This document shows positions 20,201-62,790 of a stretch of DNA of 64,000 nt, in pieces. The notes below the pieces were generated by a model, which saw only the letters and a list, made by a program, of their open reading frames with translations, ran no database searches and was not told the DNA's origin. The stretch comes from a candidate division WS6 bacterium OLB20. Lineage in GTDB: Bacteria > Patescibacteriota > Dojkabacteria > B142 > OLB20. Positions within the stretch are counted from its first letter, which is position 1, and each line of letters opens with the position of its first letter. The DNA is taken from positions 67,981 to 131,980 of the forward strand of contig JYNZ01000005.1 in assembly GCA_001567355.1 (NCBI GenBank), given 5' to 3'. Made by a program: the position numbers and the translations under genes.

Positions 20201-21060
20201 TTCCACCCGTACCACCCAGTGCCGACAGACTGCCCGAACCAGATATACTCGAGGCATCCAGATGAATACTCCCGCCGCTGCCGCCACCTCCGGCTCCGGA
20301 CTCGTTTCCGCTTGCAATAGAATAATTCCCGCCATTGCCGCCGTTTACGGTGATCTGACCATCTACTACGATTGTATTGGCATTAATTTGGACTGCTCCA
20401 CCGCCTGCTCCACCCCCTGCTCCCGGGCAGACACCAGAATCGCTATCCGCACCACCGCCACCACCACCAGATCCGCCGACTAACGTGTCCAGTCCGACAT
20501 CTCCATACCGCGTCCCCCCCATTTCCATCGGTTCTGGAATTTGCTCGTCCTCCTCCTCCAGTCGTCGCATATCCACCACCTCCTCCTCCCGATGAGATAT
20601 CACCTATTGAGCCCCATTCCGCAATTCTCCCGCCATAACCTCCGCCTGTTCCCTGTCCAATTCCACCTTCGCCATGCGTGGTAGCACCATTCCCTCCGTT
20701 TCCGCCGCCAGCAATACCCAATCCACCGGCATTTCCCGAGCATGATGCGGAATTTGAACCATTGCTGCCATTTAGAGAGAGCGTTCCATCAATTGTTACT
20801 GTGCCAGTAACATTGAGAATAAGTGGATTAGAACCTGTAGCGGTCAGGGTAGCACCAGAGGCAACGGTGATGTTGTCATAATAAAACCCGGAAGGATTAG
20901 CATCTGTATCAAGCACTGTTGTGCCCGAAGGGACATTGAGATTTGCTGCCTGACTTCGGCTTGCACCAAAAAACAATGCGACAACAAATATCAGCAGTAT
21001 TATGGCAGTTCGCTCTCGTCGGTTCATGACGGACTTGTTAGCTAACCTACGCCGGATCAC
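17253..21060 (-). CDS. Large secreted Gly-rich repeat protein of about 1270 aa (predicted beta-helix-like), interrupted by a 1-nt frameshift in a C7/G7 homopolymer at 20514..20520
   Basis: The N-terminal part (20443..21060) has a signal peptide. The main ORF (17253..20603) is in the -1 frame. Removing one G restores …RTDGNGGTRYGDVGLDTLVGG…, which aligns with internal repeat 2 (…GGGTYGDAELTVLIGG…). There are three similar modules (GGxGGG…INAN…GGNG…GAGGGGSGG…GGTGG…THGG). Confidence 0.6.
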
Positions 21061-21189
21061 TGCCTGCGCAGTAAAGTCAAAAGTACAACCGGGACTTGCC
21101 CGATCAGTTTAAATATACATTATTACTGCTTGCATTAGAAGGATTATGACACCTCTGCGTGTGTCCGACCCTCCAGAATAGTTTTCACT

Positions 21190-21456
21190 ATGCTCGAAGC
21201 TGTAAGGTGGCTAGAGGATCATGGTAGATCTCGTAAAGCCCTCTCTTGCGGTATTAAGGAGAATCTAATACAACAATATCATGAATTTCGAATTTCAATT
21301 ACTTCGGAGAGAGGTCGGGGTTACAAGCATGAGAATCAAATACTAGCGGCCGGGGTTATACCGGATGAAGACTCGCAGGACTATCCCCCTATTGATGTCC
21401 CCACATTCGTTGCTGCGGACCGATCGTATTATTTTGATATCGGTGTAAAAGGTTAA
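21190..21456 (+). CDS. Hypothetical small protein
   Basis: ORF only, sitting in a 570-nt gap with low coding signal. Confidence 0.2.
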   Translation: MLEAVRWLEDHGRSRKALSCGIKENLIQQYHEFRISITSERGRGYKHENQILAAGVIPDEDSQDYPPIDVPTFVAADRSYYFDIGVKG

Positions 21457-21630
21457 CCTGACAAGATGATCGGATCTACCAGGACGGTTGGTCCAAACTA
21501 GCCCGAAGCATTTGCTTCCGATTCTTTCAGGCTCTGAAGATTATAGGTTGATTTCCTTACCATTAGTATGTAAACCAGATTCTTGGTATCATGATGGCCG
21601 ATATATTGATTAATCAAGCTAATCAGAGAG

Positions 21631-23076
21631 ATGTCCAAACAAGATACTGTCGTCCGTTTTGAAAATGTTTCATTCAAATATGGTGAAGAGAAAGTCATCC
21701 TGAACGAAGTGAACTTTAACGTACGCAGGCATTCAAAAATTACAATCATGGGTCAGAATGGTGCGGGAAAAAGTACCATTTTTAAACTTCTTATGGGCAA
21801 ACTGAAGCCGCAATCCGGCAAAATCCATATTGATCAGTCTGCTACCGTGGCTATTGCAGAGCAGGTTGTTCCCGAAGAGATGATGGACCTCACCCTGCTT
21901 GAGTACTTCAAAACCGCATTTGCTGAAGAAAACTACAAGATTGAAAAAGACATCGCGAATGTCTTTGAGATAGTGAATCTGGATCTGCCACTGGATAAAA
22001 ACGTACGGGACCTATCCGGAGGACAGAAAGCCAGGCTCCTGCTTGCTTACGCACTGATCCAGGAGCCGGATATCCTGCTGCTTGATGAGCCCACCAATAA
22101 TCTTGATAAAGAAGGTATCGAGCATCTGACTAATTTCCTGACTTACTACTGGAACACCTGTATTGTTATCTCGCACGACGCTGATTTCCTCAATGCATTT
22201 ACCGATGGTGTTTTAAATGTGGACGTATACACCAAGAAGGTTGAACAGTTTGTAGGAAATTACTTTGATGTGATCGACCAGATCAGCGCGCACATCGAGC
22301 GGCAGAGGTTACAGAACGCCCGGATCACAAAATCGATCAAGGACAGATTTGAAAAGGTCAATAAACTTGGTGGTAAAAGTGTTGCAATGCGCCGCCTGGC
22401 AAACAAGGTCCGCAAGGATATCGAAGAGGATCGCGAGAATATGGTGGAGATTCGCCGCGACGACAGAACGATTCCTGAGTTTGTAATCCCCTATCAGCAT
22501 TTGAGTAACCCGCTTGTAACAATCAAAGAGGTGACGTTTTTGCGCGATGGCAAAGTGCAATCCCGCAACGTAGACAAGGTAATGGGACGTGGAAGCAGAA
22601 TGATCATCTCCGGTCCCAACGGTATAGGAAAAAGCACACTGCTGAAGTCATTCCTGGACGGGAAAGGAGTAGAATTTCAAGAGGATCTGCGGATTGGCTA
22701 CTACAGCCAGGATTTTTCGGAGCTGGATTTTGACCAGACAGGCATTGAATCACTGCAGAGTGTGGCACACGACACCGATCGCCAGGAGCTCTTCTCTATC
22801 GCCGGCAGTTTTCTGCTACCGGGTGAACTGCTGCAAAATAAAGTGCGTTCACTTTCAGAAGGTCAGAAAGGTCTGCTCTGCTATGCACGCTTTGTTGCTC
22901 AAAAACCCGGTCTGCTGATCATGGACGAACCTACAAATCACATCAATTTCCGCCACCTGCCGGTTATCGCAAAAGCTGTTTCGGAGTTTAAGGGCGCACT
23001 GATCCTCATCAGTCATATCCCTGAGTTCATTGAGCAGATTGGTGATGCAGATGAGATCGATCTGACTAGTTTGTAG
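21631..23076 (+). CDS. ABC-F family ATPase (two fused NBDs, no TMD)
   Basis: Two Walker A motifs (GQNGAGKST, GPNGIGKST) and two signature motifs (LSGGQKARL, LSEGQKGLL). Confidence 0.85.
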   Translation: MSKQDTVVRFENVSFKYGEEKVILNEVNFNVRRHSKITIMGQNGAGKSTIFKLLMGKLKPQSGKIHIDQSATVAIAEQVVPEEMMDLTLLEYFKTAFAEENYKIEKDIANVFEIVNLDLPLDKNVRDLSGGQKARLLLAYALIQEPDILLLDEPTNNLDKEGIEHLTNFLTYYWNTCIVISHDADFLNAFTDGVLNVDVYTKKVEQFVGNYFDVIDQISAHIERQRLQNARITKSIKDRFEKVNKLGGKSVAMRRLANKVRKDIEEDRENMVEIRRDDRTIPEFVIPYQHLSNPLVTIKEVTFLRDGKVQSRNVDKVMGRGSRMIISGPNGIGKSTLLKSFLDGKGVEFQEDLRIGYYSQDFSELDFDQTGIESLQSVAHDTDRQELFSIAGSFLLPGELLQNKVRSLSEGQKGLLCYARFVAQKPGLLIMDEPTNHINFRHLPVIAKAVSEFKGALILISHIPEFIEQIGDADEIDLTSL

Positions 23077-23096
23077 GTTCGTGCTGATTATGAAGA

Positions 23097-23174
23097 TGGG
23101 GTGGCAGGTGGGACTTGAACCCACGGCCCCCGGTGCCACAAACCGGTGCTCTAACCAACTGAGCTACAGCCACC
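23097..23174 (-). tRNA. tRNA-His (anticodon GTG) with an encoded G-1 and an encoded 3'-CCA
   Basis: Minus-strand cloverleaf with D-arm GCTCAGTTGGTTAGAGC, anticodon loop TTGTGGC, T-arm GTGGGTTCAAGTCCCAC, discriminator C and then CCA. An extra 5' G is typical of bacterial tRNA-His. There is one U-U mismatch in the acceptor stem. Confidence 0.85.
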
Positions 23175-23221
23175 ACAAGCGTTAGTAATTATACCAGACA
23201 GGAACATTCCTTGGCTAAGGG

Positions 23222-24364: not shown

Positions 24365-24365
24365 A

Positions 24366-24638: not shown

Positions 24639-24661
24639 ATCAGTGAACTAACAACTAAACG

Positions 24662-25854: not shown

Positions 25855-27339
25855 TCAGGATTTTGTATCCTGCGGAGTTTGAGAATCAGCATCTGTAGCG
25901 GACTGATTGTCTTCATCCTTTTCCTGTTCTTTTTCGAGTTGCATCTTTAGTTCCTTCATTTTCAGTTCGCGACCGATCATTGTCTGGGTCAACTCCTCCA
26001 GCTCTCCGACCTTATCCGCCAGCTCTTTTTCAACTTTCTTTTGTGCAGAAATATCGGCGATTATTCCTCGAGCTCCGACAATCACGCCATTTACCTCAAT
26101 CGGTGCAGAAAACAGGATTACCGGAAACTCTGTTCCGTCTTTTTTACGTGCGGTCAACTGACGGTTTTCAATGCGTGCGCTTGCCGGAGTCTGCCTGGCC
26201 ACTTCTTTACTCGCCTCATCGGCAAACAGATCACACAGTTTATGACCATCCAGCAGCTCCTCTTTTGTGTACCCGAACAATGGTTCTATGTAATCATTTA
26301 CGTAGGTCAGATAACATTCATTATCCGCCTCAAAGATAGTCTGCGGGAGAAGGTCTGAAAGTTCCTGATACCGTGTCTCTGATTCCTTTAGCTTGGAACT
26401 TGTCTTCTCTGCCTGAGCCTGCATGGATAATCCATACCTGCGTGCGACCATAATATAGATCAGCGCAATCACGATCAGAATAACTGAGGCGATCGCCAGC
26501 GGGCGGATCCAGTCCGGCTCGACCTCAACCTGTTGAATATTGAGGCGTAATTCATCGATAATTGACTCGTAATAAACACTTTCCGGATCGCTCTTTAGCG
26601 AACGAATATGCTTGTCTATCGTCTCGATCATCACCGGTGTATCCTGGTCGTCTTTATTGAGGGCAAACTTCAGTTCAACGGGGTTAAAAACAAGACTTGT
26701 CTGCTCGACGTTATAATTTGACCCGATGAAGTCTCCGAACAGCCTGTTAACGACTGCAATATCTGCATCTCCACGTTCCACTGACTCTATTACGTCCTCA
26801 TATGACTGCAGCCGTAAATACTCGGCTTCCAGTTCAAACGCCTCCATAAGACTGCTGATACCCAACGGACCGGTGAAGTGGATATCCTCATCAAGTACAG
26901 CTATTCTTTTGTCGGCAAAGTCACCAAATGACTCAACTCTGGAACCAGGGCGGACGTAAACAGCTGCCCAATTAATAAAGGCTGTCTCAGAGGTAAACTC
27001 AAAACGCAGGGAGCGCTCTGCAGAGAAGGCGATATCAGTTATAATATCCACCTCGCCATTTTCGAGACGCGTCAGCCCTTCATCAAATGTTCCGGGAACA
27101 TATTCAATTATCCAGCCCTCCTGCCCGGCAATGTAATCAAGAAGCTCAGGCCAGAAGCCGACAACCTGTCCGGCGTCATCTGTGTATATTTTCGGGGGAT
27201 TTTCCGAGAGCGCTACCCTGACAATGGTCTGCTCCTCCTGTGCGCGAACGTCTGCTGCCAGTGATGGTGCTGCAAGCAGGGCAATAACTATGAAGATATG
27301 CAGAAACCTTTTCAAAAGAATTTCCTGTAATGCGGACAT
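25855..27339 (-). CDS. Membrane sensor: periplasmic solute-binding (SBP_bac_3-like) domain, TM, PAS domain, and a C-terminal coiled-coil tail; no kinase, cyclase or other output domain
   Basis: Signal peptide, then about 250 aa of SBP-like sequence, one TM, a PAS-like region (…TIFEADNECYLTYVNDYIEPLFGY…) and a charged coiled coil (…MIGRELKMKELKMQLEKEQEKDEDNQ…). Confidence 0.7.
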   Translation of the reverse strand: MSALQEILLKRFLHIFIVIALLAAPSLAADVRAQEEQTIVRVALSENPPKIYTDDAGQVVGFWPELLDYIAGQEGWIIEYVPGTFDEGLTRLENGEVDIITDIAFSAERSLRFEFTSETAFINWAAVYVRPGSRVESFGDFADKRIAVLDEDIHFTGPLGISSLMEAFELEAEYLRLQSYEDVIESVERGDADIAVVNRLFGDFIGSNYNVEQTSLVFNPVELKFALNKDDQDTPVMIETIDKHIRSLKSDPESVYYESIIDELRLNIQQVEVEPDWIRPLAIASVILIVIALIYIMVARRYGLSMQAQAEKTSSKLKESETRYQELSDLLPQTIFEADNECYLTYVNDYIEPLFGYTKEELLDGHKLCDLFADEASKEVARQTPASARIENRQLTARKKDGTEFPVILFSAPIEVNGVIVGARGIIADISAQKKVEKELADKVGELEELTQTMIGRELKMKELKMQLEKEQEKDEDNQSATDADSQTPQDTKS

Positions 27340-33345: not shown

Positions 33346-33526
33346 AAAAAGTTACAGCAGCGACAGCCTCCTTCAGGAAGATGCGATGCGGCGGCGGGCT
33401 GTAGCTGTAATTTTCGAATTCATGTTCTGATAGTAGCATAAACGCTTTTTTTTTGAAAACTGGATGATTATTGTTGTATAGCAAAATTTCCTGTGCTAGT
33501 ATGACCTGCATACATAATGAGTATGC

Positions 33527-34894: not shown

Positions 34895-35624
34895 TTAATT
34901 CTGTTCATCATCCGACAGCAGCCGAAGTTCAAGATTGGTCGGGTTGAGCCCCTGCTCGAGCAGCCATGTTTCTATTCTCTTATCTGCACCCGTCAGGATA
35001 AGCAACCCGACAACAATAAGTATCACACCCAGCACTTTTTTTGAATGTGCCATCAGGGTTGGCAAGCCAGCGCAGACGCTTAACCGCATCCTGCCCCAGC
35101 CATGCAATCGCCAGCAAGGTTACAGCCATTCCCAACGTGTAAACAAGCAGATTGATCAGACCGACTGCAAAGCTTTGCGGAAGTATGGTCGCCAGAATCA
35201 CTGTGTACGTCGGACTGCAGCTTGAAAATACCGGTCCAAGTGACATGCCGATCAGCACAGAGCCGATAACTCCATCACGTGTACCTGCCTTATGCAGAAG
35301 ATTGTCAGATCGTGAGCTTAATCCCAGCTTTACGTTAATCCAGTCCCACAGACGCGGGAACAGCGTGACAATTCCAAACCCCAGGATCAGAAATCCGGCA
35401 ATCGCCGTCCATACCTGTGGAGGTACCATGATCAGTAACGTTGACGCTTTGAGAAGCAGTGTAAACAGTATGATTGAGACCGACAGCGATGCAATGATGA
35501 TCAAGGCCCGCCTTCTGCTGCCGCTGGTCAGTGAGCTGCCCAGGATAACCGGCAGTACCACGATGACACAGGGTGAAAGTATGGTCAGAAACCCAGCCAG
35601 AAGGGAGATGAAGAGATATTCCAT
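34895..35624 (-). CDS. ccdA: CcdA/DsbD-family membrane thiol-disulfide electron transporter, with a 1-nt frameshift in a T7/A7 homopolymer at 35036..35042
   Basis: N-terminal SPCV Cys motif. The annotated frame ends in a Cys/Trp-rich junk tail. Removing one A joins it to the 34895..35107 ORF, giving …FKKVLGVILIVVGLLILTG…, the canonical CcdA C-terminal helix. Confidence 0.7.
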
Positions 35625-37396: not shown

Positions 37397-37609
37397 AACA
37401 CAGCATTTTCTGAGACCGTCAACAATAGAGTTCGTGAACTGAGGACTGCACGAAACCTCACACAGTCCGATCTGGCAGATGCGCTCGGCATCACGCGCCA
37501 GACGGTCATCGCAATCGAAAAAGGCAGCTATACCCCATCAGTGCTGCTGGCCCTTAAACTTGCCGGCTACTTTAATACATCTGTCGAGGAACTTTTTTAT
37601 TATGAATAA
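37394..37609 (+). CDS. XRE-family (Cro/cI-type) HTH transcriptional regulator
   Basis: Canonical HTH_XRE sequence (…LRTARNLTQSDLADALGITRQTVIAIEKG…). Confidence 0.8.
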   Translation: MNTAFSETVNNRVRELRTARNLTQSDLADALGITRQTVIAIEKGSYTPSVLLALKLAGYFNTSVEELFYYE

Positions 37610-39077: not shown

Positions 39078-39368
39078 TTAAAACTGCGGAACAAACGGTG
39101 CCGGCGGTTCCGGTGCCCTGTCGTATAGCGGCTGTTCCGGCTTTGCTGCAGGTTGATCAAGAACAACACCGGGGTCCGGGATGCTCAGATCGGCGCCGTT
39201 CAGCTGCCGCGACACCAGCTGCAGCAAGTAGTCCCTGAAAGGAATCCACCTGCTGACATCGGGCATTCGTAAAATTTCCATATCTGAGTATATCATGTTG
39301 ACTGTAAAACCTGACACCCTCTGTCTTGCATGATATGGTAGTATCAATCTATACGAATGCACAACCAT
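39078..39368 (-). CDS. Hypothetical small protein
   Basis: ORF only. Confidence 0.2.
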
Positions 39369-53800: not shown

Positions 53801-56272
53801 GAGACAAGTGACGACGACATGCTGGTCACGACATCTGACCCTACGGCAGTCAAATCTATAGCTCAGACCAGCCTGGCAACAACCTCGGATGCGTCCGATC
53901 CGGTTGAGCTTACGCCGGGAGAAGAGGTTACGTTTTTCATTCTGATCGGAATCGGTGAAGGTACGACCACATCACTGCAGGTGCTTGACGATCTGGCCCC
54001 GAATATTGAGTATGTCTCACACGCTGTAGTGACAAATGCTGCGGCAAGCTATGGCAATATGGCCCAGAATTTCAGCGGTACAATCCCCGCTCCATCCTGC
54101 ACCGGCTGTACCCCCGGATCTGACGGAGCTGACCTGACATTTGACTTCAGCAATATCGTAAATACGGTTGACGGCAACGGACTTAATGATTTCTTCGGTC
54201 TGCAGATCGTTGCCAGACTTACAGACAACCCGATCAACGACGGTCTTCCGTCGGGTACGACTGATTTCAGCAACAGCGCAACGGTGCAGGCAAATGTGCC
54301 GACCGGACCCGTGATCGATGCAGGCACAGTCGACATGACCGTTGTGGAGCCGGATGTAACTATCACTAAGGAGTTTGACACAGGGACTGATCCAGATCAG
54401 GCATCACCATACGATATTGCCACGGTTACTATAGTAATCGGCAATGACGGCAGTACCGATGCCTACGATATTACGTGGGAGGACGATCTGGAGAGCATAC
54501 AGGCAGGAGTGTTTAACTATCAGAACGATCTCGGAGTGGTCTGTACTGGCGGCGTACCTGTTACTATGACTGTCGATGATACAGCCGATCCTCTCCTGAC
54601 CGGTCAGCTTGGCAGGCTGCCCGCAGGCGAGTCATGCACGGTAACCTTCAGTGTTGAGCTGGACGGTACTATTGACCAGGGCACCTATCCGACAGTCACT
54701 AACGAGACTGCTGTAACGTCATTTGATAACCATCCTTCGTCTCCGGCAGAGCAACGAAGCCAGGGTCCTGTAACAGCATCTGACACTATTACGGTTGCCG
54801 TTGTGGATCTCGAGATTGTAAAAGATGACAGCGATACTGAGGTTGATCCGGGTGATACAGCAATCTATACCCTGTCTGTCACCAACAACGGTCTTGCTGA
54901 TGCGACAGGTATCACTGTAACCGAAACCGTGCCGGCTAACACACAGTTTGACGCTTCTAACAGCACTGTGGGCTGGACCTGTACCCCGGACAGTGCACCG
55001 GGTGCTGCATGTACGTTTGACCTGAGCACCCATCTTGGATCAGCACTGGCTGGTAACGGCGGCACAACCGACATCTATTTTGCCCTCACGGTTGATAACC
55101 CCGTCGCACCGGGCACAGTCAGCATCGCAAATACGGCATCTGTTGAGGATGATGGCGCAAGCGGCGTAGATCCGACACCCGGTGATAATACAGATACAGA
55201 TACAAATGCTATGGGGAACGTGGTTGACCTGATTATTGTCAAGACAGCAGCAGACACTGAGACAACATTCAATACCGACCTGGTCTTCACTCTGGAATAT
55301 GAAAACGTGGGAACTGTTGACGCGGAGAATGTGGAAATCACAGAAACAGTGCCGACTGACAGCGAATTCAATCCGACCCTCAGCGCTCCCGGCTGGTCAT
55401 GCACGCCAGATAACCTGGCAGGCAGCACCTGTACACTGGCGCTCGGGACAGTCGCCGAGAATACCTCAGGCAGTGTTGAGTTTGCGGTCACAACCGGAGA
55501 CTATGCACTTGGAGTTTACAGCGAGATAGAAAACACCGCGTCTATTGCTGACGACGGCACGTACGGGCCGGACAGCAATCCATCTGATAATACAAGTACT
55601 GCGACAGTTCCTGTCTTGTACACCAATGTGTTTGACCCGCCGTCCGCGCAGAAGACATTCAATGACGACGAGCTGCCGGAGATGGAATGGGTCATGGTCT
55701 GGATCAATGACGGCAACACGGTTGCTCTAAACGTCAGGATTGTGGATCCGGTGCCGGCCGGAACAACATACATTCCAGGAAGCTTTGTCTGCGAGCCGCG
55801 GGGTGTATCTGCCACAACACTATGCGAATATGATTCCCTTAACAATCAGGTCGTCTGGGAGGGTTCAATCGGTCCGGACACGGGAGGCACAACAGAAGAC
55901 GACAGCGACAATGAGGTGGTGCTGACCTTTAAGACAAGTGTACCCGCCGAGATCGAGATGCTTGAAAACCAGGCAATGGTTTACTGGGATGACAATATGG
56001 ATGGAAACGTAGATGATGATATTCTCGCAGGGCAGACCGCAGGTATGTCAAATGACCCCGATACGACAGAAGCCGGTGACCCGACCATCTGGGAGCGTCC
56101 GGAGCTGGCTGCAACAGGCGCCGTCCTGACAGTACCGGCGTTACTTGCAACATTGATTATAGCTGCAGTTATTGCAGTCAATATTCAGCAGCAGAGGGGT
56201 ATAACCCTGCATGGATTTATACACCTCAGAAAACACTCAGGGGTAGCTGATCGGATACGATTCAGGCGCTGA
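47882..56272 (+). CDS. Giant (2796 aa) surface protein made of DUF11 'conserved repeat domain' modules, with a signal peptide and a C-terminal LAATG sorting signal plus TM and basic tail
   Basis: Many TIGR01451-like repeats (…DTAIYTLSVTNNGLADATGITVTETVP…, …DTVTFTLVISHTGASDANAYDVQLEDIIP…). The C-terminus is …PELAATGAVLTVPALLATLIIAAVIAVNIQQQRG. Confidence 0.8.
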   Translation: MVRVAYSGKDIPHMRNRFARLPHKARAVFRRPAFRAVSVFSLILFLLAPVFLPLLVSAAPVPSLVVSLPAETLIGEDVSFSISFQNTGTNEGYGPFIDLIFPFTGADGIYPFSPGLEEDGLDFVSASFLSTPLTTSVFQFTDTEPCVDHPYAVDTSGQPISICGTPGDKLVVLQLPFGSFVPGQPDVDVSVNATLHNWADAGTDLTVQARGGFQFGATPANDFTTDPSVLNTFSDYDTTPTVFSIRKNYVGPEDETASGQNFPREFNLFVDIADSLTLTDFVMNDNLDNRVVYDGFGSSSPSATITDTPGTPGAQNPPANNLTLEWASLTGTTSGTDASASFDFYVDRLDANAASVINPTAGGCVNIPNDISATADWDPDDPRDSITPVSSDVTPTDETFEACSMVIQKSVAMASDTGPAGYTPGDIVQYTLNFQVSDYFALSDVIINDLMSDGQRFDTGFTPTLSFTSHGVSTSGAMDPSSFTVTDHFTGGAPAVPPIEGTQEVSFDISGELSTRSYISGSDLIGGCVPFGGGAIDCTGSSATTGTLVFRAEIQELFTDEYAPQNDNVDQGDILTNSVEISGQILVNSTLAGTGNYVSEGSGATFSILNGALAVKDIYAINGITGSYSTPAIGPGDTVTYRIRFEMPTSDVEDLVITDYLPLPVFEATEITTFDPTVNATVPPAGTVKFGANDTFFALTGITPILTNDGTSNTFTLDYGSNQEVTEVSSVIELYVTVTASDEPFADGLFLTNQAQSTQGTTNSTTETATQIVQVELTLPNLQITKGIIATDGPAGVFDPAPPAPESVTAPDTAGFRFGGTVSSSDLDANPMDSNLSDVDSDDLVSFVIVVENTGQGVNGAFDVGISDTLPADFVIPVAGNGLNLRVTDGAGNPLSWTAADGTDTVPLFEDGIILDDGVTGALDAYDTSSGGNIALITYDLQIVNDVEPESLIENTATLFQYASTEGGPDFVSINQTDAAEVSGTKAPDISKSYTTTNHAGSTDPDVVVGEQITYEVVLDIPEGEMTGTDLTDTLDSGLALLGIDSIVASSGDVTTSHAGGFAGVAADIVVTNSGRTIEFPFDTITNVNTDDGVTETITVTYTVVVLNNNQIYRDRARNNSAVFTYQNGTVSDSASNVNVAEPTLQITKTPSPTSADAGDTVTFTLVISHTGASDANAYDVQLEDIIPTGMTYVAASVSHDAGLAPDNGPSESGGTISATWNTFPDDGSTSTISFDVTIDSTVPLGGTVTNTAGIEWTSLPGDITADQSTYASPSTERTGDTGNPGGSENDYTTSANGPVSILSVNPVKTIAATSEASTTALSGIERVTVGEIVRYRMVIRVAESTATNLQLRDNLSTGMQFIDDGTAMVAFVSNDAGITSSTLIPGSIGCDGGSNPDIAFTGNQTTVSGITPECPLPDSAVSNSAGSDVDTYASGTDIYFKLGNVVNDDRDGDDELIVVEFNALVRNEASNVSATNRDNTFNVFENGSSVAVSTTGNSSRVRIAEPVVSVAKAVTVAPTDAGDALQYTITVTNTDTSVNGASAFDFTVTDTVPAEAAVQSVSVSTPNGYTDNSSGQNVSVVLDTLGKGQAATITINTFVSSVVQPEEIISNSASAVWTSLPGTNGTTGNPTGSANSGSAGTATGERTGQDGVGLLNDYTASSTANTSVGSVIIDKLSPSPTSYPIGSSVDYDIRVTLPEGTVSNVVVTDFVPAGMDYTGYQVITTSGTNLPQTFAGSVPAPSVSGGTGSGSDVSFTFSSISTTADNDTGNNSFLVRVTLVILNELTTQRGDTLGNTAGLVFDNPNGPGTLAENDLVPENITVLEPILQLTKTASSVPAEVEAGTTVEYEIEVQHHANSNSTAHDVVINDPAQSNLTITGVSVNVTGSISTPSSTFTGNTVRVPASGSFDLPDDGTIVTVTVTATVSAGASETITNIADTTWASTDLPNTNARTDGSGEYDLAESGATGLNDYETSDDDMLVTTSDPTAVKSIAQTSLATTSDASDPVELTPGEEVTFFILIGIGEGTTTSLQVLDDLAPNIEYVSHAVVTNAAASYGNMAQNFSGTIPAPSCTGCTPGSDGADLTFDFSNIVNTVDGNGLNDFFGLQIVARLTDNPINDGLPSGTTDFSNSATVQANVPTGPVIDAGTVDMTVVEPDVTITKEFDTGTDPDQASPYDIATVTIVIGNDGSTDAYDITWEDDLESIQAGVFNYQNDLGVVCTGGVPVTMTVDDTADPLLTGQLGRLPAGESCTVTFSVELDGTIDQGTYPTVTNETAVTSFDNHPSSPAEQRSQGPVTASDTITVAVVDLEIVKDDSDTEVDPGDTAIYTLSVTNNGLADATGITVTETVPANTQFDASNSTVGWTCTPDSAPGAACTFDLSTHLGSALAGNGGTTDIYFALTVDNPVAPGTVSIANTASVEDDGASGVDPTPGDNTDTDTNAMGNVVDLIIVKTAADTETTFNTDLVFTLEYENVGTVDAENVEITETVPTDSEFNPTLSAPGWSCTPDNLAGSTCTLALGTVAENTSGSVEFAVTTGDYALGVYSEIENTASIADDGTYGPDSNPSDNTSTATVPVLYTNVFDPPSAQKTFNDDELPEMEWVMVWINDGNTVALNVRIVDPVPAGTTYIPGSFVCEPRGVSATTLCEYDSLNNQVVWEGSIGPDTGGTTEDDSDNEVVLTFKTSVPAEIEMLENQAMVYWDDNMDGNVDDDILAGQTAGMSNDPDTTEAGDPTIWERPELAATGAVLTVPALLATLIIAAVIAVNIQQQRGITLHGFIHLRKHSGVADRIRFRR

Positions 56273-56364
56273 CAGCTCTGTCAGAAAGTTATCGCGATAA
56301 TTGTTCTGCACCCAGACAAGCAGCACGATCGCAGCAGCAAACAATCCCAGCAGTACAAGTGTCT

Positions 56365-56970
56365 TCAGCCAGTCTGCAGCGGTCGCACGCTCACCGGCTC
56401 TGCCTTCACGACGAATCTCCGGTCTGATGTCCATAGCGGAACACAGGTATAAAGTGTAAGAATATTGCGCTCTGATGGCTCTTCAATGTACTTTGCATCG
56501 GCAGCCACCTCCTCGGTCACACTCACGCGGTACTCGTACTCTGTCTCGTTCCAGAGGACGAAAATCGTATCCCCCTCCTTCAGTCTGGGTAGATGATAGA
56601 ACGAACGCTGCTCCTGTCCATACAGGTAACGGTGGGCAACAAGCACTGTATTGCCTCCCGCTTCAGGGTCTGATGTACCAGGTCTGCGCCAGATGCCGTT
56701 GTCCAGCGTTGCAAATGCAGTGCCTTCCCAGATGCGTCCTGACACACCTATGCGCGGTATTATCAGTCGATTTCCCGTCTCCGGTTCGGAAGGAACCGGC
56801 ACAGCTAGTGCGCGTGCCTGATCAAGCAGCCCCTCCTGCAGTTCTGGTGCAAGTTCCCGGTATGTCAGCTCAGGGATGAGGGGCAGAATTATCACATACA
56901 GCGCGATCGACACTGTCATTACTGACAGGAGAAACTGTATCCGCTGCAAGAAAGTTCTGCTCATGGACAT
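56365..56970 (-). CDS. Sortase transpeptidase (class E-like), membrane-anchored
   Basis: N-terminal TM, catalytic His in NTVLVAHRY, TLxTC motif (LTLYTCVP) and a downstream Arg (RRFVVKA). It sits adjacent to the LAATG substrate. Confidence 0.8.
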   Translation of the reverse strand: MSMSRTFLQRIQFLLSVMTVSIALYVIILPLIPELTYRELAPELQEGLLDQARALAVPVPSEPETGNRLIIPRIGVSGRIWEGTAFATLDNGIWRRPGTSDPEAGGNTVLVAHRYLYGQEQRSFYHLPRLKEGDTIFVLWNETEYEYRVSVTEEVAADAKYIEEPSERNILTLYTCVPLWTSDRRFVVKAEPVSVRPLQTG

Positions 56971-56983
56971 ATTCTAGCAGGTG

Positions 56984-57487
56984 CTAGGCGGCTTGGGACA
57001 TCAGGTTGCTGATGAAGCGCTTGACCTCAACAGGATCATCGATTCCGGTCATGCTTAACTCTACAGAAGCGGAACCCGATGTATTGAGATGCAGTGTTCC
57101 GGAGTTGAACAGAAACCGTTCGGCAAATGTCTGCTCAAGAACAATGTCCGTAATCTGTTCGTATGATACAGAGATGAACACGTTCCCGAGTATTCCGCGC
57201 TGTGATATGACACGCCGGTTCGTGATTGCATAGTTGTAGGCGCGCGGAAGATAGGCAAAATTGTACAGGAGGATGTATGTGTAGAGTACTGCGACCGCGA
57301 GCGTGCCGGATATCGCAATAACCGGCTGATAGAGTATCCCCAGAGCATAGTAGGACATTCCAAGCCAGATAATGAAGCAGAACACTCCGCCGGCAGCAAC
57401 ACCAAATGACCTTGTCCTGATACTGACGGTAAGCAGCATCAGAATCTTCTCATTGTCTGCCAGATGGGCGCTGAGGGAGTGCTTCAT
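56984..57487 (-). CDS. bPH_2 (YdbS-like) membrane protein
   Basis: Two TM helices are followed by …ITNRRVISQRGILGNVFISVSYEQITDI…. Confidence 0.6.
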   Translation of the reverse strand: MKHSLSAHLADNEKILMLLTVSIRTRSFGVAAGGVFCFIIWLGMSYYALGILYQPVIAISGTLAVAVLYTYILLYNFAYLPRAYNYAITNRRVISQRGILGNVFISVSYEQITDIVLEQTFAERFLFNSGTLHLNTSGSASVELSMTGIDDPVEVKRFISNLMSQAA

Positions 57488-57630: not shown

Positions 57631-58110
57631 ATGCGACTCAAAATAGTCTCTCTGCTCCTGTTCGTGACTATATTCGTAACAGCCTGTACACCTGCTCTGC
57701 CTGAGGATACCAATTCTGATCCGTTCAGCACCGAAAACGGCAGCGGACAGACCGGTACCCCGACCGCAGAACCCCTGACCGAAGAGGAACGCCAGCAGGC
57801 GGAAGAACGAAACCAGGAACGTGACAACGAGGCACAGCAGATCGCGGAGGCGGTAAACGAGTTTACCTCGAAAGGCGGGCAGCTGCAGGAAGCAGAACTG
57901 ATTCCCTCCTGCGATGACGGTGTTACCGGTATCGGTACGATCAAAGGACTTATCAGTCTTGATAATCTTATCCCGCAGTATCTGAGTGAGATACCGACAG
58001 ACCCGCGCACAGGTTCTGCCAACGACAGCGGTTATGCCCTCTGCCGCTCAGGCGATGACATCGTCGTCACGGCGCCCAACGCAGAACTGGATCGCGAGAT
58101 CAGGAAGTAG
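57631..58110 (+). CDS. Lipoprotein with a pseudopilin (GspG-like) C-terminal motif
   Basis: Lipobox VTAC after the signal peptide (start moved to MRLKIVSLLL). The C-terminus QYLSEIPTDPRTG…GYALCRSGDDIVVTAPNAELD resembles the GspG YLxxLPxDPWG…Y…GDD…D block. Confidence 0.45.
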   Translation: MRLKIVSLLLFVTIFVTACTPALPEDTNSDPFSTENGSGQTGTPTAEPLTEEERQQAEERNQERDNEAQQIAEAVNEFTSKGGQLQEAELIPSCDDGVTGIGTIKGLISLDNLIPQYLSEIPTDPRTGSANDSGYALCRSGDDIVVTAPNAELDREIRK

Positions 58111-58905
58111 TTTTACCCTGCTCATCATTTTTACTGCTACCATTCTGCTGCTGTAGCTGTTTCTTCAGCTGGATCATTTTAAGTTCACGACCGATCAGCG
58201 TCTTATTCATCGACTCCAGATCCTTGTTTACATCTTCAAGCTTGTAGACTGACTCACTCAGACGCTTTTTTAGTCGATGTCAGTTCTTCAAGCTGCGAGC
58301 GCAGCTGTGCGTTTTTTAGCATCGATCTCTGCCAGGTGCTTCCCTATCACAGAACGGCTGGCGTCTGCGGCAGACTGAAACAGCCATATCATTACAAACA
58401 CAAATGACAGTGTCAGAACAAACATGAAGTACTCAAACTCACTGTACAGGAAAGTAAATGATGCAGTTGTCCTGGCCAGCAGAAAGAAAACAAATGTGGT
58501 CAGGACAAAGAACGCATGGAGATAAAACCCGAGATGCCTGCCGACCAGAAACACTGTGATAGGCGGCAGAACATAACACCACAGGAGTCCTGTTTCGTAA
58601 AACCCGCCTGAGATGAAGTTATGCAGACAGATTACAAATAACGGAAGCACGCCGATCGTCGCCGCAGGTTGCATCCGCTTGGTGCTTAAGCCTGTCAGCA
58701 TTGAAAACAGGATAATCGCAGCGAGGAGAAGCTCGAGTGCAGCAATTGGGTAGTCGGCGATCGAAAGGTTGATAAGAGTGTAGGCAATGAATACGACAAA
58801 GCCGATACTACCGAATACGATCAGAAAGCGCACGCGGGTCGTCTCCTCTTCTGTTGATGCCCGGGGCTTAAAGATATCAGTGAAGTTTTTCAGCAGTCGG
58901 TTCAT
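58101..58905 (-). CDS. Membrane sensor-like protein (5-6 TM) with a C-terminal coiled-coil tail homologous to that of 25855..27339, interrupted by two homopolymer (T6/A6) frameshifts
   Basis: The 205-aa ORF (58288..58905) ends at …EIDAKKRTAALAA*. Removing one A at 58304..58309 and one at 58267..58272 gives …EIDAKNAQLRSQLEELTSTKKRLSESVYKLEDVNKDLESMNKTLIGRELKMIQLKKQLQQQNGSSKNDEQGKTTS*. Confidence 0.5.
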
Positions 58906-59482: not shown

Positions 59483-59514
59483 GCTGTAACCGTAAACTGT
59501 TACAAGCATAGTAG

Positions 59515-59844: not shown

Positions 59845-61211
59845 TCCCAGGGCCTCCCGAGGTACTGATCGTGGATAGTCTCATCACCTGTGATCTCTGT
59901 TATTGACGGTGCCGGTTCACGCAGCTCACGGCCAGGATGAATCCGCAGCAGCTCGTAAAGCGGTGTAACCAGACCGGCCAGCCACAAAAGCACAACAGCT
60001 GCAAGTACAGGTTTTGAGGCGTTTTTAAGATACGGAAGAGACATAAGCAGAACGTAGCAGTATACAGGCAGTACTGTTCTGATCAGAATATCATTGGCCC
60101 CGCCCGTTCCTATCCTGAACAGCGGGACGACAGCAAGCAGTAGACACAGAGCAATCAGCACATACCTGTCGGTTTTACTGAGGTGTTTCAGCGCAGTACC
60201 CGCAACAACCAGCAGCAGAAGCAGCTCTGCGGCGATAAAGACTATATACAGGAGCAGTTCGCTTGATACCAGGATAGTTCGATCAACAGTCGCGTGGTGC
60301 AGAAGCATATAGCCAACAGGCAGGATACCTGCTCCAGCCAGCAACAAAAATCTGAGGTCAGCCCCCTGCCGTGCTTTTGCCAGGTATCTTACCGCGACAA
60401 TAATGACAAGACCTGCAGCAGCAAACGGAGACCAGAGCACTACCGCCGGCAGCAGCAGAGCAGTCAGTCGAGGATAGACAGAAAGGATAAACACGCCCAT
60501 TAATGCCGGATAAACATGTTGCGGTACATAAACAAGCAACGTAATGCTTGCGCCGTACTGAAAAAAGCCGGTCCAGACCCCGTCAATCAGATTAGTATAC
60601 GACCACTCGATATGGCGGCGAAGAGGAGGCAGACTGCCGCGCGAAACAAGCCAGACCAGCCAGTCGATGCCCGAATACAGCAGCAGGAAGGCCATCCCCA
60701 GCATACTTTGACCTCCGGTCAGCTTCCGGCGCTGCAGAAGCCAGACAGCACCGGTCATCAGGACAAACCCTGCCATGCTCCACAGGCTCAGCGCAAGTTT
60801 TGCTACCTCGTAAGAGCCTGCAGCTTTGCCTGCCAGCGCGGGTATCAGATAAAAACCGAGATAGTAGTTAAGCGATTTCCCGGACTCGTATACAACCGGC
60901 CAGCTGTTTCTGACCAGATCCGATAGGACTGTATTGTGTTTCTCCCAGTCAAACGGTTCATACCCGATAAATTGCGGGAGTCCGCCAAGCAGGATAAAGA
61001 TCAGCAGAGAGAAAACAACCACCAGGAGTAATTCGCGCCTCGCGGTATTAATCCGTCTGAAGTCAGGGATACGTATGCTGCTGCGGAAGCTGTACGCCAG
61101 ACCTGTCAGAAAGATCAACCCGGCAATCGCTGCCGGAGAGTTGAGATACAGAAGAAATACCGCATACGGCAGCATCAGGTACAGAAAGATCAGAAATGCT
61201 GTCTGCTTCAT
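59841..61211 (-). CDS. Polytopic membrane protein (≥10 TM); possible GT-C / Wzy-like glycosyltransferase or polymerase
   Basis: Hydropathy only. It is translationally coupled to the upstream membrane-protein gene. Confidence 0.4.
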   Translation of the reverse strand: MKQTAFLIFLYLMLPYAVFLLYLNSPAAIAGLIFLTGLAYSFRSSIRIPDFRRINTARRELLLVVVFSLLIFILLGGLPQFIGYEPFDWEKHNTVLSDLVRNSWPVVYESGKSLNYYLGFYLIPALAGKAAGSYEVAKLALSLWSMAGFVLMTGAVWLLQRRKLTGGQSMLGMAFLLLYSGIDWLVWLVSRGSLPPLRRHIEWSYTNLIDGVWTGFFQYGASITLLVYVPQHVYPALMGVFILSVYPRLTALLLPAVVLWSPFAAAGLVIIVAVRYLAKARQGADLRFLLLAGAGILPVGYMLLHHATVDRTILVSSELLLYIVFIAAELLLLLVVAGTALKHLSKTDRYVLIALCLLLAVVPLFRIGTGGANDILIRTVLPVYCYVLLMSLPYLKNASKPVLAAVVLLWLAGLVTPLYELLRIHPGRELREPAPSITEITGDETIHDQYLGRPWD

Positions 61212-62365
61212 CTCGTGTCACTGTAATCATGTAACTGTTTCCATTGCAGACGCGTCTCGTTCCTCACATATTTTGCAGCCTGCGCGAGATACGTTCTTAT
61301 CCTTACACCCCACAGCCACGCTGCAGTCATTGCTGCCAGCAGGATCAGCGGCAGTGTGTATTCACCACCATGAGCTTTTGTTGCACGCATAAAATCAGGT
61401 GCCGTGTTAATAAAAAAGCTCCAGCCGACACCCAGGCCATCCAGTGTAAACAGCCAGGCTGTAATCGCAGTGTAGGCTGCTGAGAGAATTCCGGGATACA
61501 CAGCGATTGCCAGCGCAGGCAGGATCAGATACGTATGCAGTACCGAGGGGCTGGCAAGTACCAGCAGTACCGGGTACCAGATCAGCAGCTCTTCAGTGCT
61601 GCGCTTTCGCAGCAGCCAGCCTGCTCCTGTCATGATCAGAACCATTATTATCAGAGGAGGAACAAACCAGCTGATGACATGCGGCACAAACAGAGCCTGT
61701 GCTCCGGAAGAGTTAGCTGAATACCCGAACACATTGCGGAGAATACCTTCGTACTGCTGCGCAAACGGAATAAAGCCTGCCGCAAATACAGCATAGGAAA
61801 GGAGTGCGCTTCTCAGGGACATTTTTCCGGCAAACACGAGCCACACCGGCAGAAAAATGAACACATGCTTCAGCATGAAGCTGACACCAAGAGCAAGTCC
61901 GAACAAAAGCTCATTCCTGTCCTTGAATTGAAACAGCAGAAGTGTAACTGCTATGACAAGCAGATCAAATTGCATGAAAAAGCCTGCACCAAGTATCGTC
62001 AGGGGGTTGAACCAGAACAGAGCAAATACTCTTAATCCATATCTGCGCCGCAACCACTCCGCTATGACCAGATCTGCTGCATTGAACAGTGTGACCAGCA
62101 TGACCCGGAATACTGCCGGTGAAGAAGCCAGCAGATCCATACCAGCCACTACATATCCCCAGACAGGGCCGTAGTTGTACCTTGTTGTTTCAGTGTACAG
62201 TGATCCTCCACTGTTAATAATTTCTGCGACAATCCGATAGGAATCAAAATCAACGGTCATTCCCTGTGTAGCAGCAAGAAAACGCAGAATTATCCCCTCT
62301 GCTATCAGGATAAGCAGAATTCTTCCCTGCCTTGTTTCAAGGGCTTTTAGTAAAGCTTTTAGCAT
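61208..62365 (-). CDS. Polytopic membrane protein, GT-C-fold glycosyltransferase-like (DUF2029/GT87- or PMT/ArnT-like)
   Basis: The first extracytoplasmic loop carries the acidic motif (…VDFDSYRIVAEI…NYGPVWGY…) typical of GT-C enzymes. There are about 10 TM helices. Confidence 0.35.
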   Translation of the reverse strand: MLKALLKALETRQGRILLILIAEGIILRFLAATQGMTVDFDSYRIVAEIINSGGSLYTETTRYNYGPVWGYVVAGMDLLASSPAVFRVMLVTLFNAADLVIAEWLRRRYGLRVFALFWFNPLTILGAGFFMQFDLLVIAVTLLLFQFKDRNELLFGLALGVSFMLKHVFIFLPVWLVFAGKMSLRSALLSYAVFAAGFIPFAQQYEGILRNVFGYSANSSGAQALFVPHVISWFVPPLIIMVLIMTGAGWLLRKRSTEELLIWYPVLLVLASPSVLHTYLILPALAIAVYPGILSAAYTAITAWLFTLDGLGVGWSFFINTAPDFMRATKAHGGEYTLPLILLAAMTAAWLWGVRIRTYLAQAAKYVRNETRLQWKQLHDYSDTR

Positions 62366-62369
62366 CAGT

Positions 62370-62790
62370 TTAGTGCTTCAAGTAGGACACGGCTATTGCT
62401 GCAAGAGTTTCGGCAGCCGAATTGATCTCCGGGGCACCCACTGTGTTGCCGGGTTCATGGACGACAACGTTTCTAAGCTTATGTGATTCCCAGATACGAT
62501 TGTAATCCTCCCGCGAGAAACGTCCCTTTGCATTCTTAAGTCTCATACCCATCGTGTCGCCTGTACTGATATTTTTGAGCAGCTTATCAAACAGCGCGTC
62601 CATGAGAACAAGCTTAGCAACGGCTTCAGGTCGGGAAGATGATTTTACTCTGCCTGCTGCAACTATCTCAGCCTGAAGCGATGCTTTCCAGCCGGGTTTG
62701 CTCCTTCCGGCAATCACACCCACGGCAAAAAAAAAGCAGCAGTGCTGCACCGATGACCAGAGTTATAAGTACCTCGGGTTGAATGTTCAT
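62370..62790 (-). CDS. Signal-anchored small protein with an Rx4H (HEPN-like, DUF4145-type) motif, interrupted by a 1-nt frameshift in a T9/A9 homopolymer at 62727..62735
   Basis: An ATG at 62790 directly abuts the stop of the upstream gene and encodes MNIQPEVLITLVIGAALLLFF. Removing one T joins it to the 126-aa ORF (…AVGVIAGRSKPGW…WESHKLRNVVVHEPG…). Confidence 0.4.

What the first reader, a model, noticed from the sequence alone, without database searches (positions are those of the whole stretch)
20514..62735. Systematic 1-nt shifts in homopolymers of six or more bases break at least four genes, probably assembly error rather than biology
Frameshifts occur at C7 (20514..20520, Gly-rich protein), T7 (35036..35042, ccdA), T6 and T6 (58267..58272 and 58304..58309, sensor) and A9 (62727..62735, HEPN-like gene). 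In every case removing exactly one base of the run restores a long ORF. The restored junctions are biologically sensible: repeat alignment, the canonical CcdA C-terminal helix, a tail homologous to the other sensor, and tight start/stop coupling. A one-direction bias like this is characteristic of homopolymer over-calling, so the affected genes should not be called pseudogenes. Phase variation is an alternative for the surface-protein genes, but it is unlikely for ccdA.
Basis: seen in the sequence. Interest (0 to 1): 0.55.

Follow-up and report, generated by a model that had tools for sequence, protein, structure and literature searches.

The report
Single-base homopolymer frameshifts breaking five genes
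Five genes of an uncultured wastewater bacterium (candidate division WS6 OLB20) are each split by one extra or missing base, mostly in short single-letter runs; this looks like a sequencing error, but a second public dataset shows the same breaks, so they may be real mutations.

Summary
The frameshifts are there.

"Systematic" and "one-directional" are overstated. Only 5 of 44 coding runs of 6 or more break a frame. A fifth gene (1835-2901, outside the range) is shifted the other way, by a missing base near a C4.

The window is candidate division WS6 bacterium OLB20, a metagenome bin sequenced only on Ion Torrent PGM at about 30x. Its authors reported "persistent frameshifts", so an artefact is a natural suspicion.

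The independent data I could reach point the other way:
- A Logan assembly of SRA run SRR29904084 is 100% identical to window 7717-23176, including the C7.
- Logan assemblies also carry the same frameshifted products for ccdA, the MASE6 sensor head, the HEPN-like gene and gene 1835.
- No intact version exists among about 15 billion proteins.
- PGM subsamples had only 3-6x coverage of this organism, so they cannot have produced that 15-kb contig.

The platform of SRR29904083/84 is unknown. My estimates are real, fixed slippage mutations about 0.5, PGM artefact about 0.35. Either way the phenomenon is ordinary.

The parts
17253..21027 (-). Gene for a large Gly-rich secreted protein with a signal peptide and two ~290-aa internal repeats. 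Restored length is 1257 aa. In the window it is split into ORFs 20443-21060 and 17253-20603.
   Evidence: no Pfam family
20514..20520 (-). G7 in the mRNA sense (C7 on the + strand). One base too many; G6 would read ...NGG|TRYGD...
   Evidence: The internal-repeat alignment is continuous through the junction. The same C7 is present in Logan contig L082.
34895..35624 (-). ccdA/DsbD-family membrane thiol-disulfide transporter. Restored length is 242 aa. It is annotated as a 214-aa protein with an 18-aa out-of-frame tail (KXK26063.1).
35036..35042 (-). A7 in the mRNA sense (T7 on the + strand). One base too many; A6 gives the conserved ...GTFKK|VLGV...
   Evidence: The relative L081 has A6 at the same codons. 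The frameshifted products are also recorded from Logan (P0001; P0274).
58100..58905 (-). Membrane sensor made of a MASE6 domain plus a coiled-coil tail. Restored length is 267 aa. It is annotated only as the 205-aa head (KXK26083.1).
58312..58317 (-). First A6 in the mRNA sense (T6 on the + strand). One base too many; A5 gives ...EIDAK|NAQLRSQLEEL...
   Evidence: The 205-aa product that ends just after this shift is recorded from NCBI and Logan.
58266..58271 (-). Second A6 in the mRNA sense (T6 on the + strand), 46 nt downstream of the first. One base too many; A5 gives ...TSTKK|RLSESVYKLEDV...
   Evidence: The tail is homologous to the tail of the sensor at 25855-27339, across this junction. 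There is no independent-dataset evidence for this run.
62370..62790 (-). Small membrane-anchored protein with a conserved RNxxxHE motif (HEPN-like, weak support). Restored length is 139 aa, and its ATG directly follows the stop of the upstream gene. It is annotated as 126 aa from a GTG at 62750.
62727..62735 (-). T9 in the mRNA sense (A9 on the + strand). One base too many; T8 gives the full N-terminal membrane helix ...AALLLFF|AVGVIAG...
   Evidence: The 126-aa product that depends on T9 is also called on an SRR29904083 contig.
1835..2901 (+). The annotated 342-aa product (KXK26028.1) has a wrong-frame tail of about 85 aa. The true C-terminus lies in the other frame and ends at 2901.
   Evidence: Codon-usage frame change. 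Homologue P0123 (349 aa) aligns to residues 18-345 of the restored 355-aa protein without a break.
2541..2600 (+). Interval in which one base is missing, the opposite direction to the other events. The longest run is C4 at 2591-2594. The exact position cannot be resolved because both frames are open here.

Best explanation
The run lengths in the window are probably the true majority sequence of WS6 bacterium OLB20.

Proposed mechanism: replication slippage in short homopolymers added one base (G6 to G7, A6 to A7, A5 to A6 twice, T8 to T9) or removed one base (near C4 at 2591). These alleles became fixed, or at least dominant, in a nearly clonal reactor population.

Consequences:
- The Gly-rich surface protein loses its signal peptide from the main body.
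- CcdA loses its last membrane helix.
- The MASE6 sensor loses its coiled-coil tail.
- The HEPN-like protein loses half of its membrane anchor.
- Gene 1835 gets a wrong C-terminus.

These would be recent loss-of-function or truncation alleles, that is, young pseudogenes. They are specific to this lineage, because relatives are in frame.

Shown: the frameshifts, the correct restored frames, the intact relatives, and reproduction in a second assembly. Inferred: that the second dataset is independent and accurate, and that the cause is slippage with weak repair or selection.
For: - Logan contig SRR29904084_803 (15,460 nt) equals window 7717-23176 with 0 mismatches and 0 gaps. This includes C7 20514-20520 and all 17 runs of 6 or more in that stretch.
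- SRR29904083 contigs carry gene calls that only fit the frameshifted sequence: a 126-aa HEPN-like gene 40 nt after the 297-aa gene, and a separate 52-aa ccdA tail gene (that 52-aa product is recorded from Logan only).
- The exact frameshifted products are recorded from both NCBI and Logan: 214-aa CcdA, 205-aa sensor head, 126-aa HEPN-like and 342-aa gene 1835.
- None of the four restored proteins I looked up (CcdA, the sensor, the HEPN-like protein and gene 1835) exists among about 15 billion proteins; the restored Gly-rich protein was not looked up.
- The original PGM subsamples had 12-26 thousand reads of about 300 nt for this 1.4-Mb bin, about 3-6x each. They cannot yield a perfect 15-kb contig, so SRR29904083/84 are other, deeper data.
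- PGM typically under-calls long homopolymers, yet all five long-run events here are extra bases.
- The authors had already removed frameshifts by script and by hand, so what remains may be what their reads supported.
- Two hits 46 nt apart in one gene fit neutral decay after a first inactivating hit better than they fit independent errors.
Against: - The bin is PGM-only at roughly 30x, a setting in which residual homopolymer frameshifts are expected and were acknowledged.
- Five of 57 genes broken is very high for a real genome and typical of PGM assemblies (my own knowledge).
- Each gene carries one lesion (the sensor two) and no nonsense or non-homopolymer damage, as errors would give.
- All broken genes are ones a homology-based correction would miss: hypothetical proteins, or a break near the C-terminus.
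- Another Logan contig (1,422 nt) encodes exactly the product of a +1 insertion in the A6 at 14740-14745 of an epimerase gene that is intact in the window and in L082. So +1 homopolymer miscalls of this organism do exist in public data.
- The platform, sample and independence of SRR29904083/84 are unknown. Perfect identity over 15 kb would also result if those runs were derived from the GenBank record.
- DNA-level confirmation exists for only one of the six event sites.
Confidence: 0.5

Rival explanations
1. The frameshifts are Ion Torrent PGM homopolymer miscalls that survived the authors' script and manual correction. They survived because they lie in genes without good database homologues, or, for ccdA, close to the C-terminus. 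The real genome has one base fewer at the five runs and one more near 2591, and all five genes are intact.
For: - Provenance: the window's ORFs equal GenBank proteins of WS6 OLB20. The data are PGM 400-bp chemistry only, assembled with CLC then SPAdes, and 'persistent frameshifts' were acknowledged. Coverage was only about 30x in total.
- Five of six events sit in runs of 6 or more, which make up 0.53% of the window, and the break rate rises with run length: 5% of coding 6-mers against 43% of coding runs of 7 or more.
- The downstream frames are perfectly preserved and homologous to intact relatives.
- A +1 call at another A6 (14740-14745) occurs in a short Logan contig of the same organism.
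Against: - Independent-looking assemblies reproduce the alleles, and no dataset holds an intact allele.
- L082 agrees with the GenBank sequence at all 17 runs of 6 or more, including an intergenic T7 that frame-based correction could not have fixed. This implies that the PGM consensus is accurate there.
- The published PGM error model predicts under-calls, not over-calls, in long runs. High-frequency indel errors are mostly run-specific, and six runs were pooled here.
Confidence: 0.35
2. The runs are phase-variable contingency tracts. Tract length switches reversibly by slippage and turns envelope proteins (the Gly-rich surface protein, the MASE6 sensor, the membrane HEPN-like protein, CcdA) off and on within the population. 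The assemblies happen to show the OFF state.
For: - All four genes hit in long runs encode membrane or secreted proteins.
- Run-length variation between datasets exists for at least one other A6 of this organism.
- From my own knowledge, and untested here: many candidate-phyla-radiation bacteria have reduced DNA repair, and episymbionts could benefit from surface variation.
Against: - The same state appears at every tested site in the 2013 GenBank bin and in the Logan assemblies. That argues for fixed rather than switching alleles.
- Tracts of 6-7 are short for classical phase variation; only the T9 is in the usual range.
- Gene 1835 is shifted at a C4 or shorter run.
- The 77%-identical relative has an ordinary in-frame A6 that encodes a conserved Lys-Lys.
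Confidence: 0.1
3. The frameshifts are real and are decoded. Either +1 ribosomal frameshifting or transcriptional slippage on the runs yields full-length proteins, so the genes remain functional despite the genomic frameshift.
For: - All five long-run events need the same +1 correction, and on a homopolymer a P-site tRNA can re-pair perfectly.
- T9/A9 tracts are long enough for appreciable RNA polymerase slippage (my own knowledge of E. coli, Thermus dnaX and endosymbiont poly(A) tracts).
Against: - No stop codon directly follows any run, and I saw no rare-codon or other stimulator signal (sequence context).
- The frameshifts are not conserved: relatives have in-frame genes.
- Runs of 6-7, and a G7, slip poorly.
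- Gene 1835 needs the opposite correction.
Confidence: 0.03

Closest known systems
Flow-chemistry (Ion Torrent PGM / 454) homopolymer indel errors, seen as 'persistent frameshifts' in consensus assemblies
   Same: The data are PGM-only. The indels are single bases, five of six lie inside runs of 6 or more, the frequency rises with run length, and there are no other lesions. The genome's authors reported this problem themselves.
   Different: All long-run events are over-calls, whereas PGM mainly under-calls long runs. The alleles are reproduced in Logan assemblies of later SRA runs, which the low-coverage PGM subsamples cannot explain.
Slipped-strand frameshift mutations at homopolymers that create young pseudogenes in small, weakly repaired or drift-prone genomes (for example insect endosymbionts; my own knowledge)
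   Same: Single-base length changes sit in coding mononucleotide runs. Relatives are intact, the alleles are lineage-specific, and one gene has taken a second hit.
   Different: The runs are short (6-9 nt) and G+C is about 50%, not AT-rich. The repair gene content of OLB20 was not examined, and no read-level proof is available.
Phase-variable contingency loci (poly-G/poly-A tracts in Neisseria, Haemophilus, Campylobacter, Helicobacter; my own knowledge)
   Same: Homopolymer tracts lie inside genes for surface or membrane proteins, and a one-base change toggles the reading frame.
   Different: No tract-length polymorphism is seen at these sites across datasets. The tracts are mostly shorter than typical, and the tracts encode conserved residues, for example Lys-Lys in CcdA.
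Programmed +1 frameshifting or transcriptional slippage (prfB, dnaX, endosymbiont poly(A) rescue; my own knowledge)
   Same: The same +1 correction would restore all four genes, and the T9 is slippage-prone.
   Different: There are no stimulatory signals, no conservation of the frameshift in homologues, and one gene needs the opposite shift.

Membership tests
Sequencing artefact (Ion Torrent homopolymer miscall) | The sequence derives from flow-based chemistry without polishing by another platform | tested here: met
   Window ORFs are identical to GenBank proteins of WS6 OLB20. The paper states PGM only, CLC then SPAdes assembly, and script plus manual frameshift correction.
Sequencing artefact (Ion Torrent homopolymer miscall) | The indel lies within a homopolymer, and frequency rises with run length | tested here: met
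   Five of six events lie in runs of 6 or more. 2 of 37 coding 6-mers and 3 of 7 coding runs of 7 or more are broken. A real slippage mutation predicts the same pattern.
Sequencing artefact (Ion Torrent homopolymer miscall) | The indel is not reproduced by independent data of another chemistry | tested here: not met
   L082 (Logan, SRR29904084) reproduces C7 and 15,460 nt exactly. SRR29904083 gene calls and Logan-sourced proteins reproduce four more events. Caveat: the platform and origin of these runs are unknown.
Sequencing artefact (Ion Torrent homopolymer miscall) | The direction of error is as expected for the platform (long runs under-called on PGM) | tested here: not met
   All five long-run events are extra bases. 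Bragg et al. report under-calling of long homopolymers. The numbers are small, and a +1 call at another A6 exists in a short Logan contig.
Genuine slippage frameshift mutation / young pseudogene | The same allele appears in independent samples or assemblies | tested here: met
   Independence is inferred from the accession series and from the coverage argument, not proven.
Genuine slippage frameshift mutation / young pseudogene | Orthologues or paralogues are intact and colinear across the break | tested here: met
   CcdA; HEPN-like family; gene 1835; internal repeat of the Gly-rich protein; paralogous sensor tail.
Genuine slippage frameshift mutation / young pseudogene | Read-level support from accurate reads | not testable with these tools
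   No access to raw reads of PRJNA274364 or SRR29904083/84.
Phase-variable contingency locus | Tract length is polymorphic within or between populations at the locus | tested here: not met
   The state is identical in GenBank (2013 sample) and in the Logan assemblies at every site that could be checked. Within-sample heterogeneity is not testable.
Phase-variable contingency locus | A long tract (usually 8 or more) in a surface or envelope gene | tested here: inconclusive
   The gene class fits. Only the T9 reaches the usual length; the others are 6-7.
Programmed frameshift / transcriptional slippage recoding | The frameshift is conserved in homologues | tested here: not met
   Homologues are in frame. 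L081 has A6 at the ccdA site.
Programmed frameshift / transcriptional slippage recoding | A slippery site with a stimulator (stop or rare codon, Shine-Dalgarno-like element), or a run of 9 or more A/T for RNA polymerase slippage | tested here: not met
   No stop codon follows any run in the original frame. Only site 4 (T9) is long enough for efficient transcriptional slippage.

The most novel reading that the evidence does not exclude
OLB20, a candidate-phyla-radiation bacterium, stably carries many genes with +1 homopolymer frameshifts over about a decade. It either expresses them through polymerase or ribosome slippage, or uses short hypermutable runs as a contingency system for its envelope proteins. 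That would be a genome-wide lifestyle feature rather than isolated pseudogenes.
Probability: 0.07. Interest if true: 0.65.

Novelty: already known. Interest (0 to 1): 0.27.

Why it matters
Practically, public databases carry wrong products for these genes. GenBank/UniProt entries KXK26063.1 and KXK26028.1 contain out-of-frame tails, KXK26083.1 is only the 205-aa head of the sensor, and the 126-aa product (locus tag TR69_WS6001001382) starts too late. Anyone using OLB20 as a reference for WS6/Dojkabacteria inherits them.

Scientifically, the case shows that "homopolymer plus Ion Torrent" is not enough to dismiss a frameshift. The only other data reachable here reproduce the alleles. If they are real, about 9% of the genes in this 64-kb stretch of a reduced-genome bacterium are freshly inactivated. 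That would say something about the mutation pressure and repair capacity of this lineage. If they are errors, this is routine assembly polishing.

Tried and rejected
Candidate extra frameshifts:
- Mechanical census of all runs of 4 or more with a one-base edit. It returned 45 run-and-strand candidates at my thresholds; apart from the C7 and A9 sites, those I examined are ordinary gene junctions or shadow ORFs, so ORF merging alone proves nothing.
- 42944-42949 (A6): rejected. The second ORF is a shadow of the MerR/TipAS gene on the other strand.
- 37593-37598 (T6): rejected. It separates a complete 71-aa XRE-type helix-turn-helix regulator from a separate membrane protein.
- 5024/5493: rejected. 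These look like two complete genes by eye, a pyridoxamine 5'-phosphate-oxidase-like protein and a response-regulator receiver.
- 24366/23222 and 24662: rejected. These are three complete small genes.
- 33296 ORF: intergenic noise.
- 27929-28807: a genuine Cys- and Pro/Thr-rich surface protein despite an odd codon score.

Searches that gave nothing useful:
- E. coli genomes and plasmids: no match.
- GTDB genomes with LeuRS: best hit only 50% identity, so no close genome was available.
- JGI metagenome scans with the restored sensor and with a run-spanning DNA pattern for the A9 site: nothing.
- Word-based homologue search for the HEPN-like protein: found only itself; the exhaustive HMMER search was needed.
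- Look-ups of the thioredoxin ORF, P0001, the 2796-aa, 385-aa, 205-aa and gnd products: 'not on record'.
- Look-ups of the cytochrome b5, P0121, 374-aa and 456-aa products: only a DNA-less SRR29904083 contig. DNA-level confirmation was therefore obtained for site 1 only.
- Literature searches for SRR29904083/84, for later Olburgen metagenomes and for the correction script: nothing new.
- Pfam and PDB sequence searches: no firm family for the HEPN-like protein.

Full report
1. WHAT IS IN THE SEQUENCE

The runs exist: C7 20514-20520, T7 35036-35042 and A9 62727-62735 are as stated. All affected genes are on the minus strand. In three-frame translations the reading frame moves by +1 at each run, and deleting one base fuses the pieces.

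ORF fusion alone is weak evidence. A mechanical census of every run of 4 or more with a one-base edit returned 45 run-and-strand candidates; apart from the C7 and A9 sites, those I examined are trivial. I therefore tested each junction independently.

2. ARE THE RESTORED PROTEINS RIGHT?

Site 1, Gly-rich gene. The restored 1257-aa protein has a signal peptide and two internal repeats. These align at 45% identity over 274 aa straight through the junction (...DGNGGTRYGDVGLDTLVGGSGGGGGG against ...GASGGGTYGDAELTVLIGGSGGGGGG).

Site 2, ccdA. The protein matches the DsbD_2/DsbD_TM families. More than 100 homologues of 238-246 aa cover 98-100% of the restored 242 aa and share ...GxFKKVLG...GL..TGxDK. 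A 77%-identical WS6 relative from a JGI metagenome has 'ttc aaa aaa gga' (A6) exactly where the window has A7.

Site 3, sensor. The head is a MASE6 domain. The first frame stops before the last frame opens, so the 16-codon middle frame must be used, which means two separate +1 events. The tail, across the second junction, is homologous to the C-terminal tail of the SBP-PAS sensor at 25855-27339, with the shared motif IGRELKM..LK.QL. The alignment score is 85 against 35.7+/-6.2 for 500 shuffles, none of which reached it. A converging lipoprotein-like gene on the plus strand (about 57640-58110) explains why nothing follows the tail.

Site 4, HEPN-like gene. An exhaustive HMMER search found 359 relatives. 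Eleven aligned proteins, ten relatives and the annotated 126-aa version, show that the family is 133-142 aa, colinear from residue 1, with an N-terminal membrane helix followed by W-K and a conserved RNxxxHE. The annotated 126-aa version (GTG start at 62750) lacks half of that helix. Support for 'HEPN' is only weak.

All four restorations are therefore correct.

3. HOW SYSTEMATIC IS IT?

With a 57-gene model (91% coding), 37 runs of exactly 6 lie in coding sequence and 2 of them break a frame. Of 7 coding runs of 7 or more, 3 break a frame. Most long runs are in frame, for example C7 at 50283 and A7 at 10065.

A codon-usage frame scan that ignores homopolymers recovered the same four loci and one more. 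Gene 1835-2863(+) switches to another frame around 2550. The only non-self homologue, P0123 (349 aa, 37% identity), aligns to residues 18-345 of the protein built by adding one base, with no break. This fifth gene needs the opposite correction: a missing base somewhere in 2541-2600, where the longest run is C4 at 2591-2594. Its annotated 342-aa product has a wrong tail of about 85 aa. Other candidates were examined and rejected.

Five events one way and one the other is not a significant bias. The association with runs of 6 or more is real, however: they make up 0.53% of the sequence and hold 5 of the 6 events.

4. WHERE THE WINDOW COMES FROM

The 214-aa ccdA ORF, including its 18-aa out-of-frame tail, is identical to KXK26063.1. 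Other ORFs equal further KXK proteins of candidate division WS6 bacterium OLB20, on a contig of 138,667 nt. This is bin WS6-1 of Speth et al. 2016 (PMC4821891). The data are Ion Torrent PGM 400-bp chemistry only, from six runs, assembled with CLC and reassembled with SPAdes. [quoted passage not shown]

The supplement shows 12-26 thousand reads of about 300 nt per subsample in the four subsamples I could read, that is 3-6x each. If the other four are similar, the total is about 30x. Against it, Bragg et al. (PMC3623719) report that PGM over-calls short homopolymers and under-calls long ones, and that high-frequency indel errors are mostly run-specific. Consensus over-calls of 6-9-mers in six pooled runs are not what that error model predicts.

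5. THE INDEPENDENT-DATA TEST

Exact-protein look-ups found this organism in Logan assemblies of SRA runs SRR29904083 and SRR29904084. By my own reckoning of SRA numbering, those accessions are far later than the 2015 deposition.

- Contig SRR29904084_803 (L082, 15,460 nt) is 100.000% identical to window 7717-23176, with no gap. This includes the C7 and all 17 runs of 6 or more in that stretch, among them an intergenic T7.
- For SRR29904083 no DNA could be fetched. Its gene calls nevertheless match the frameshifted sequence: a 126-aa HEPN-like gene 40 nt after the 297-aa gene, and a separately called 52-aa ccdA tail.
- Exact-sequence look-ups show that the frameshifted products are recorded from both NCBI and Logan (214-aa CcdA, 205-aa sensor head, 126-aa HEPN-like, 342-aa gene 1835). 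The 52-aa tail is recorded from Logan only. None of the four restored proteins I looked up (the restored Gly-rich protein was not among them) exists among about 15 billion sequences.

A 3-6x PGM subsample cannot give a perfect 15-kb contig, so these runs are other and deeper data.

A short Logan contig (1,422 nt) encodes '...AIIKKA*'. That is exactly the product of a +1 insertion in the A6 at 14740-14745 of an epimerase gene that is intact in the window and in L082. This is what a low-coverage assembly of error-prone reads would look like. It shows that +1 homopolymer calls of this organism do occur in public data.

6. WEIGHING THE EXPLANATIONS

For an artefact:
- PGM-only provenance at modest coverage.
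- A frequency of broken genes (5 of 57) typical of PGM assemblies and rare in real genomes.
- Single clean lesions.
- Lesions only in genes that a homology-based correction would miss.

For real mutations:
- Reproduction in assemblies that cannot be the PGM subsamples.
- No intact allele anywhere.
- Perfect agreement of the GenBank sequence with L082 at every other long run, so the PGM consensus is good there.
- The wrong direction for the PGM error model.
- Two hits in one gene, as expected once a gene is already dead.

The conclusion hinges on whether SRR29904083/84 are independent, accurate data. If they were simulated or derived from the GenBank record, they say nothing. My estimates are: real fixed slippage alleles about 0.5, PGM artefact about 0.35, reversible phase variation about 0.1, recoding about 0.03.

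Phase variation is disfavoured because the state is the same in all datasets and the tracts are short. Recoding is disfavoured because homologues are in frame, no stop codon follows any run, and gene 1835 needs the opposite shift.

7. COMPARISON WITH KNOWN PHENOMENA AND VERDICT

Both leading explanations, flow-chemistry homopolymer errors and slipped-strand frameshift mutations, are textbook phenomena, so nothing here is a new kind of feature.

The useful outcomes are:
- Corrected coordinates for the two T6 runs.
- A fifth broken gene, shifted in the opposite direction.
- Identification of the source genome and its sequencing history.
- Corrected protein models for five database entries.

Interest is low to moderate.

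Noticed in passing
The annotated product KXK26028.1 has a wrong-frame tail of about 85 aa. Homologue P0123 is colinear with the restored 355-aa protein.
   Followed up: yes
window 14740-14745 (A6 in epimerase gene 14558-15496): A 1,422-nt Logan contig encodes a 64-aa product '...AIIKKA*', exactly what a +1 insertion in this A6 gives. The window and L082 have the intact 312-aa gene. So run-length disagreement between public datasets of this organism exists. The source run of that contig is unknown.
   Followed up: partly
window 25855-26025 and 58100-58270 (minus strand): Two sensors without output domains, one SBP+PAS (494 aa) and one MASE6 (restored 267 aa), end in a homologous coiled-coil tail of about 50 aa with the motif IGRELKM..LK.QL. 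This may be a shared partner-binding or signalling module.
   Followed up: partly
window 62370-62790 (-): This gene belongs to a widespread family (359 hits) of ~135-142-aa proteins that has no Pfam family. Members have an N-terminal membrane helix, W-K, and a conserved KLRNxxxHE. Only faint HEPN profile matches were found. The public annotation starts 13 codons too late if the restoration is right.
   Followed up: partly
window 47882-57487: A 2796-aa surface protein with DUF11 and Cna-B-like repeats is followed on the other strand by a sortase (56365-56970) and a bacterial PH-domain protein (56984-57487). This looks like a sortase-anchored giant adhesin locus in a candidate-phyla-radiation bacterium.
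   Followed up: no
window 43408-44097 (+): A 229-aa protein matches the TIMP (tissue inhibitor of metalloproteinase) domain (E 1e-6), which I believe is unusual in bacteria.
   Followed up: no
window 33446-33454 (T9), 42683-42691 (A9), 17172-17178 (T7): The other longest runs are intergenic or sit at a gene end: the A9 overlaps the stop of the MerR/TipAS gene. Their true lengths cannot be judged from reading frames. The T7 at 17172 is confirmed by L082.
   Followed up: partly
window 39367-41850 (+), LeuRS: The best match among GTDB species representatives is only 50% identical, and the exact LeuRS product is recorded from NCBI only, not from Logan. The source genome seems absent or masked in the genome collection, and the Logan contigs probably break inside this conserved gene.
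   Followed up: no
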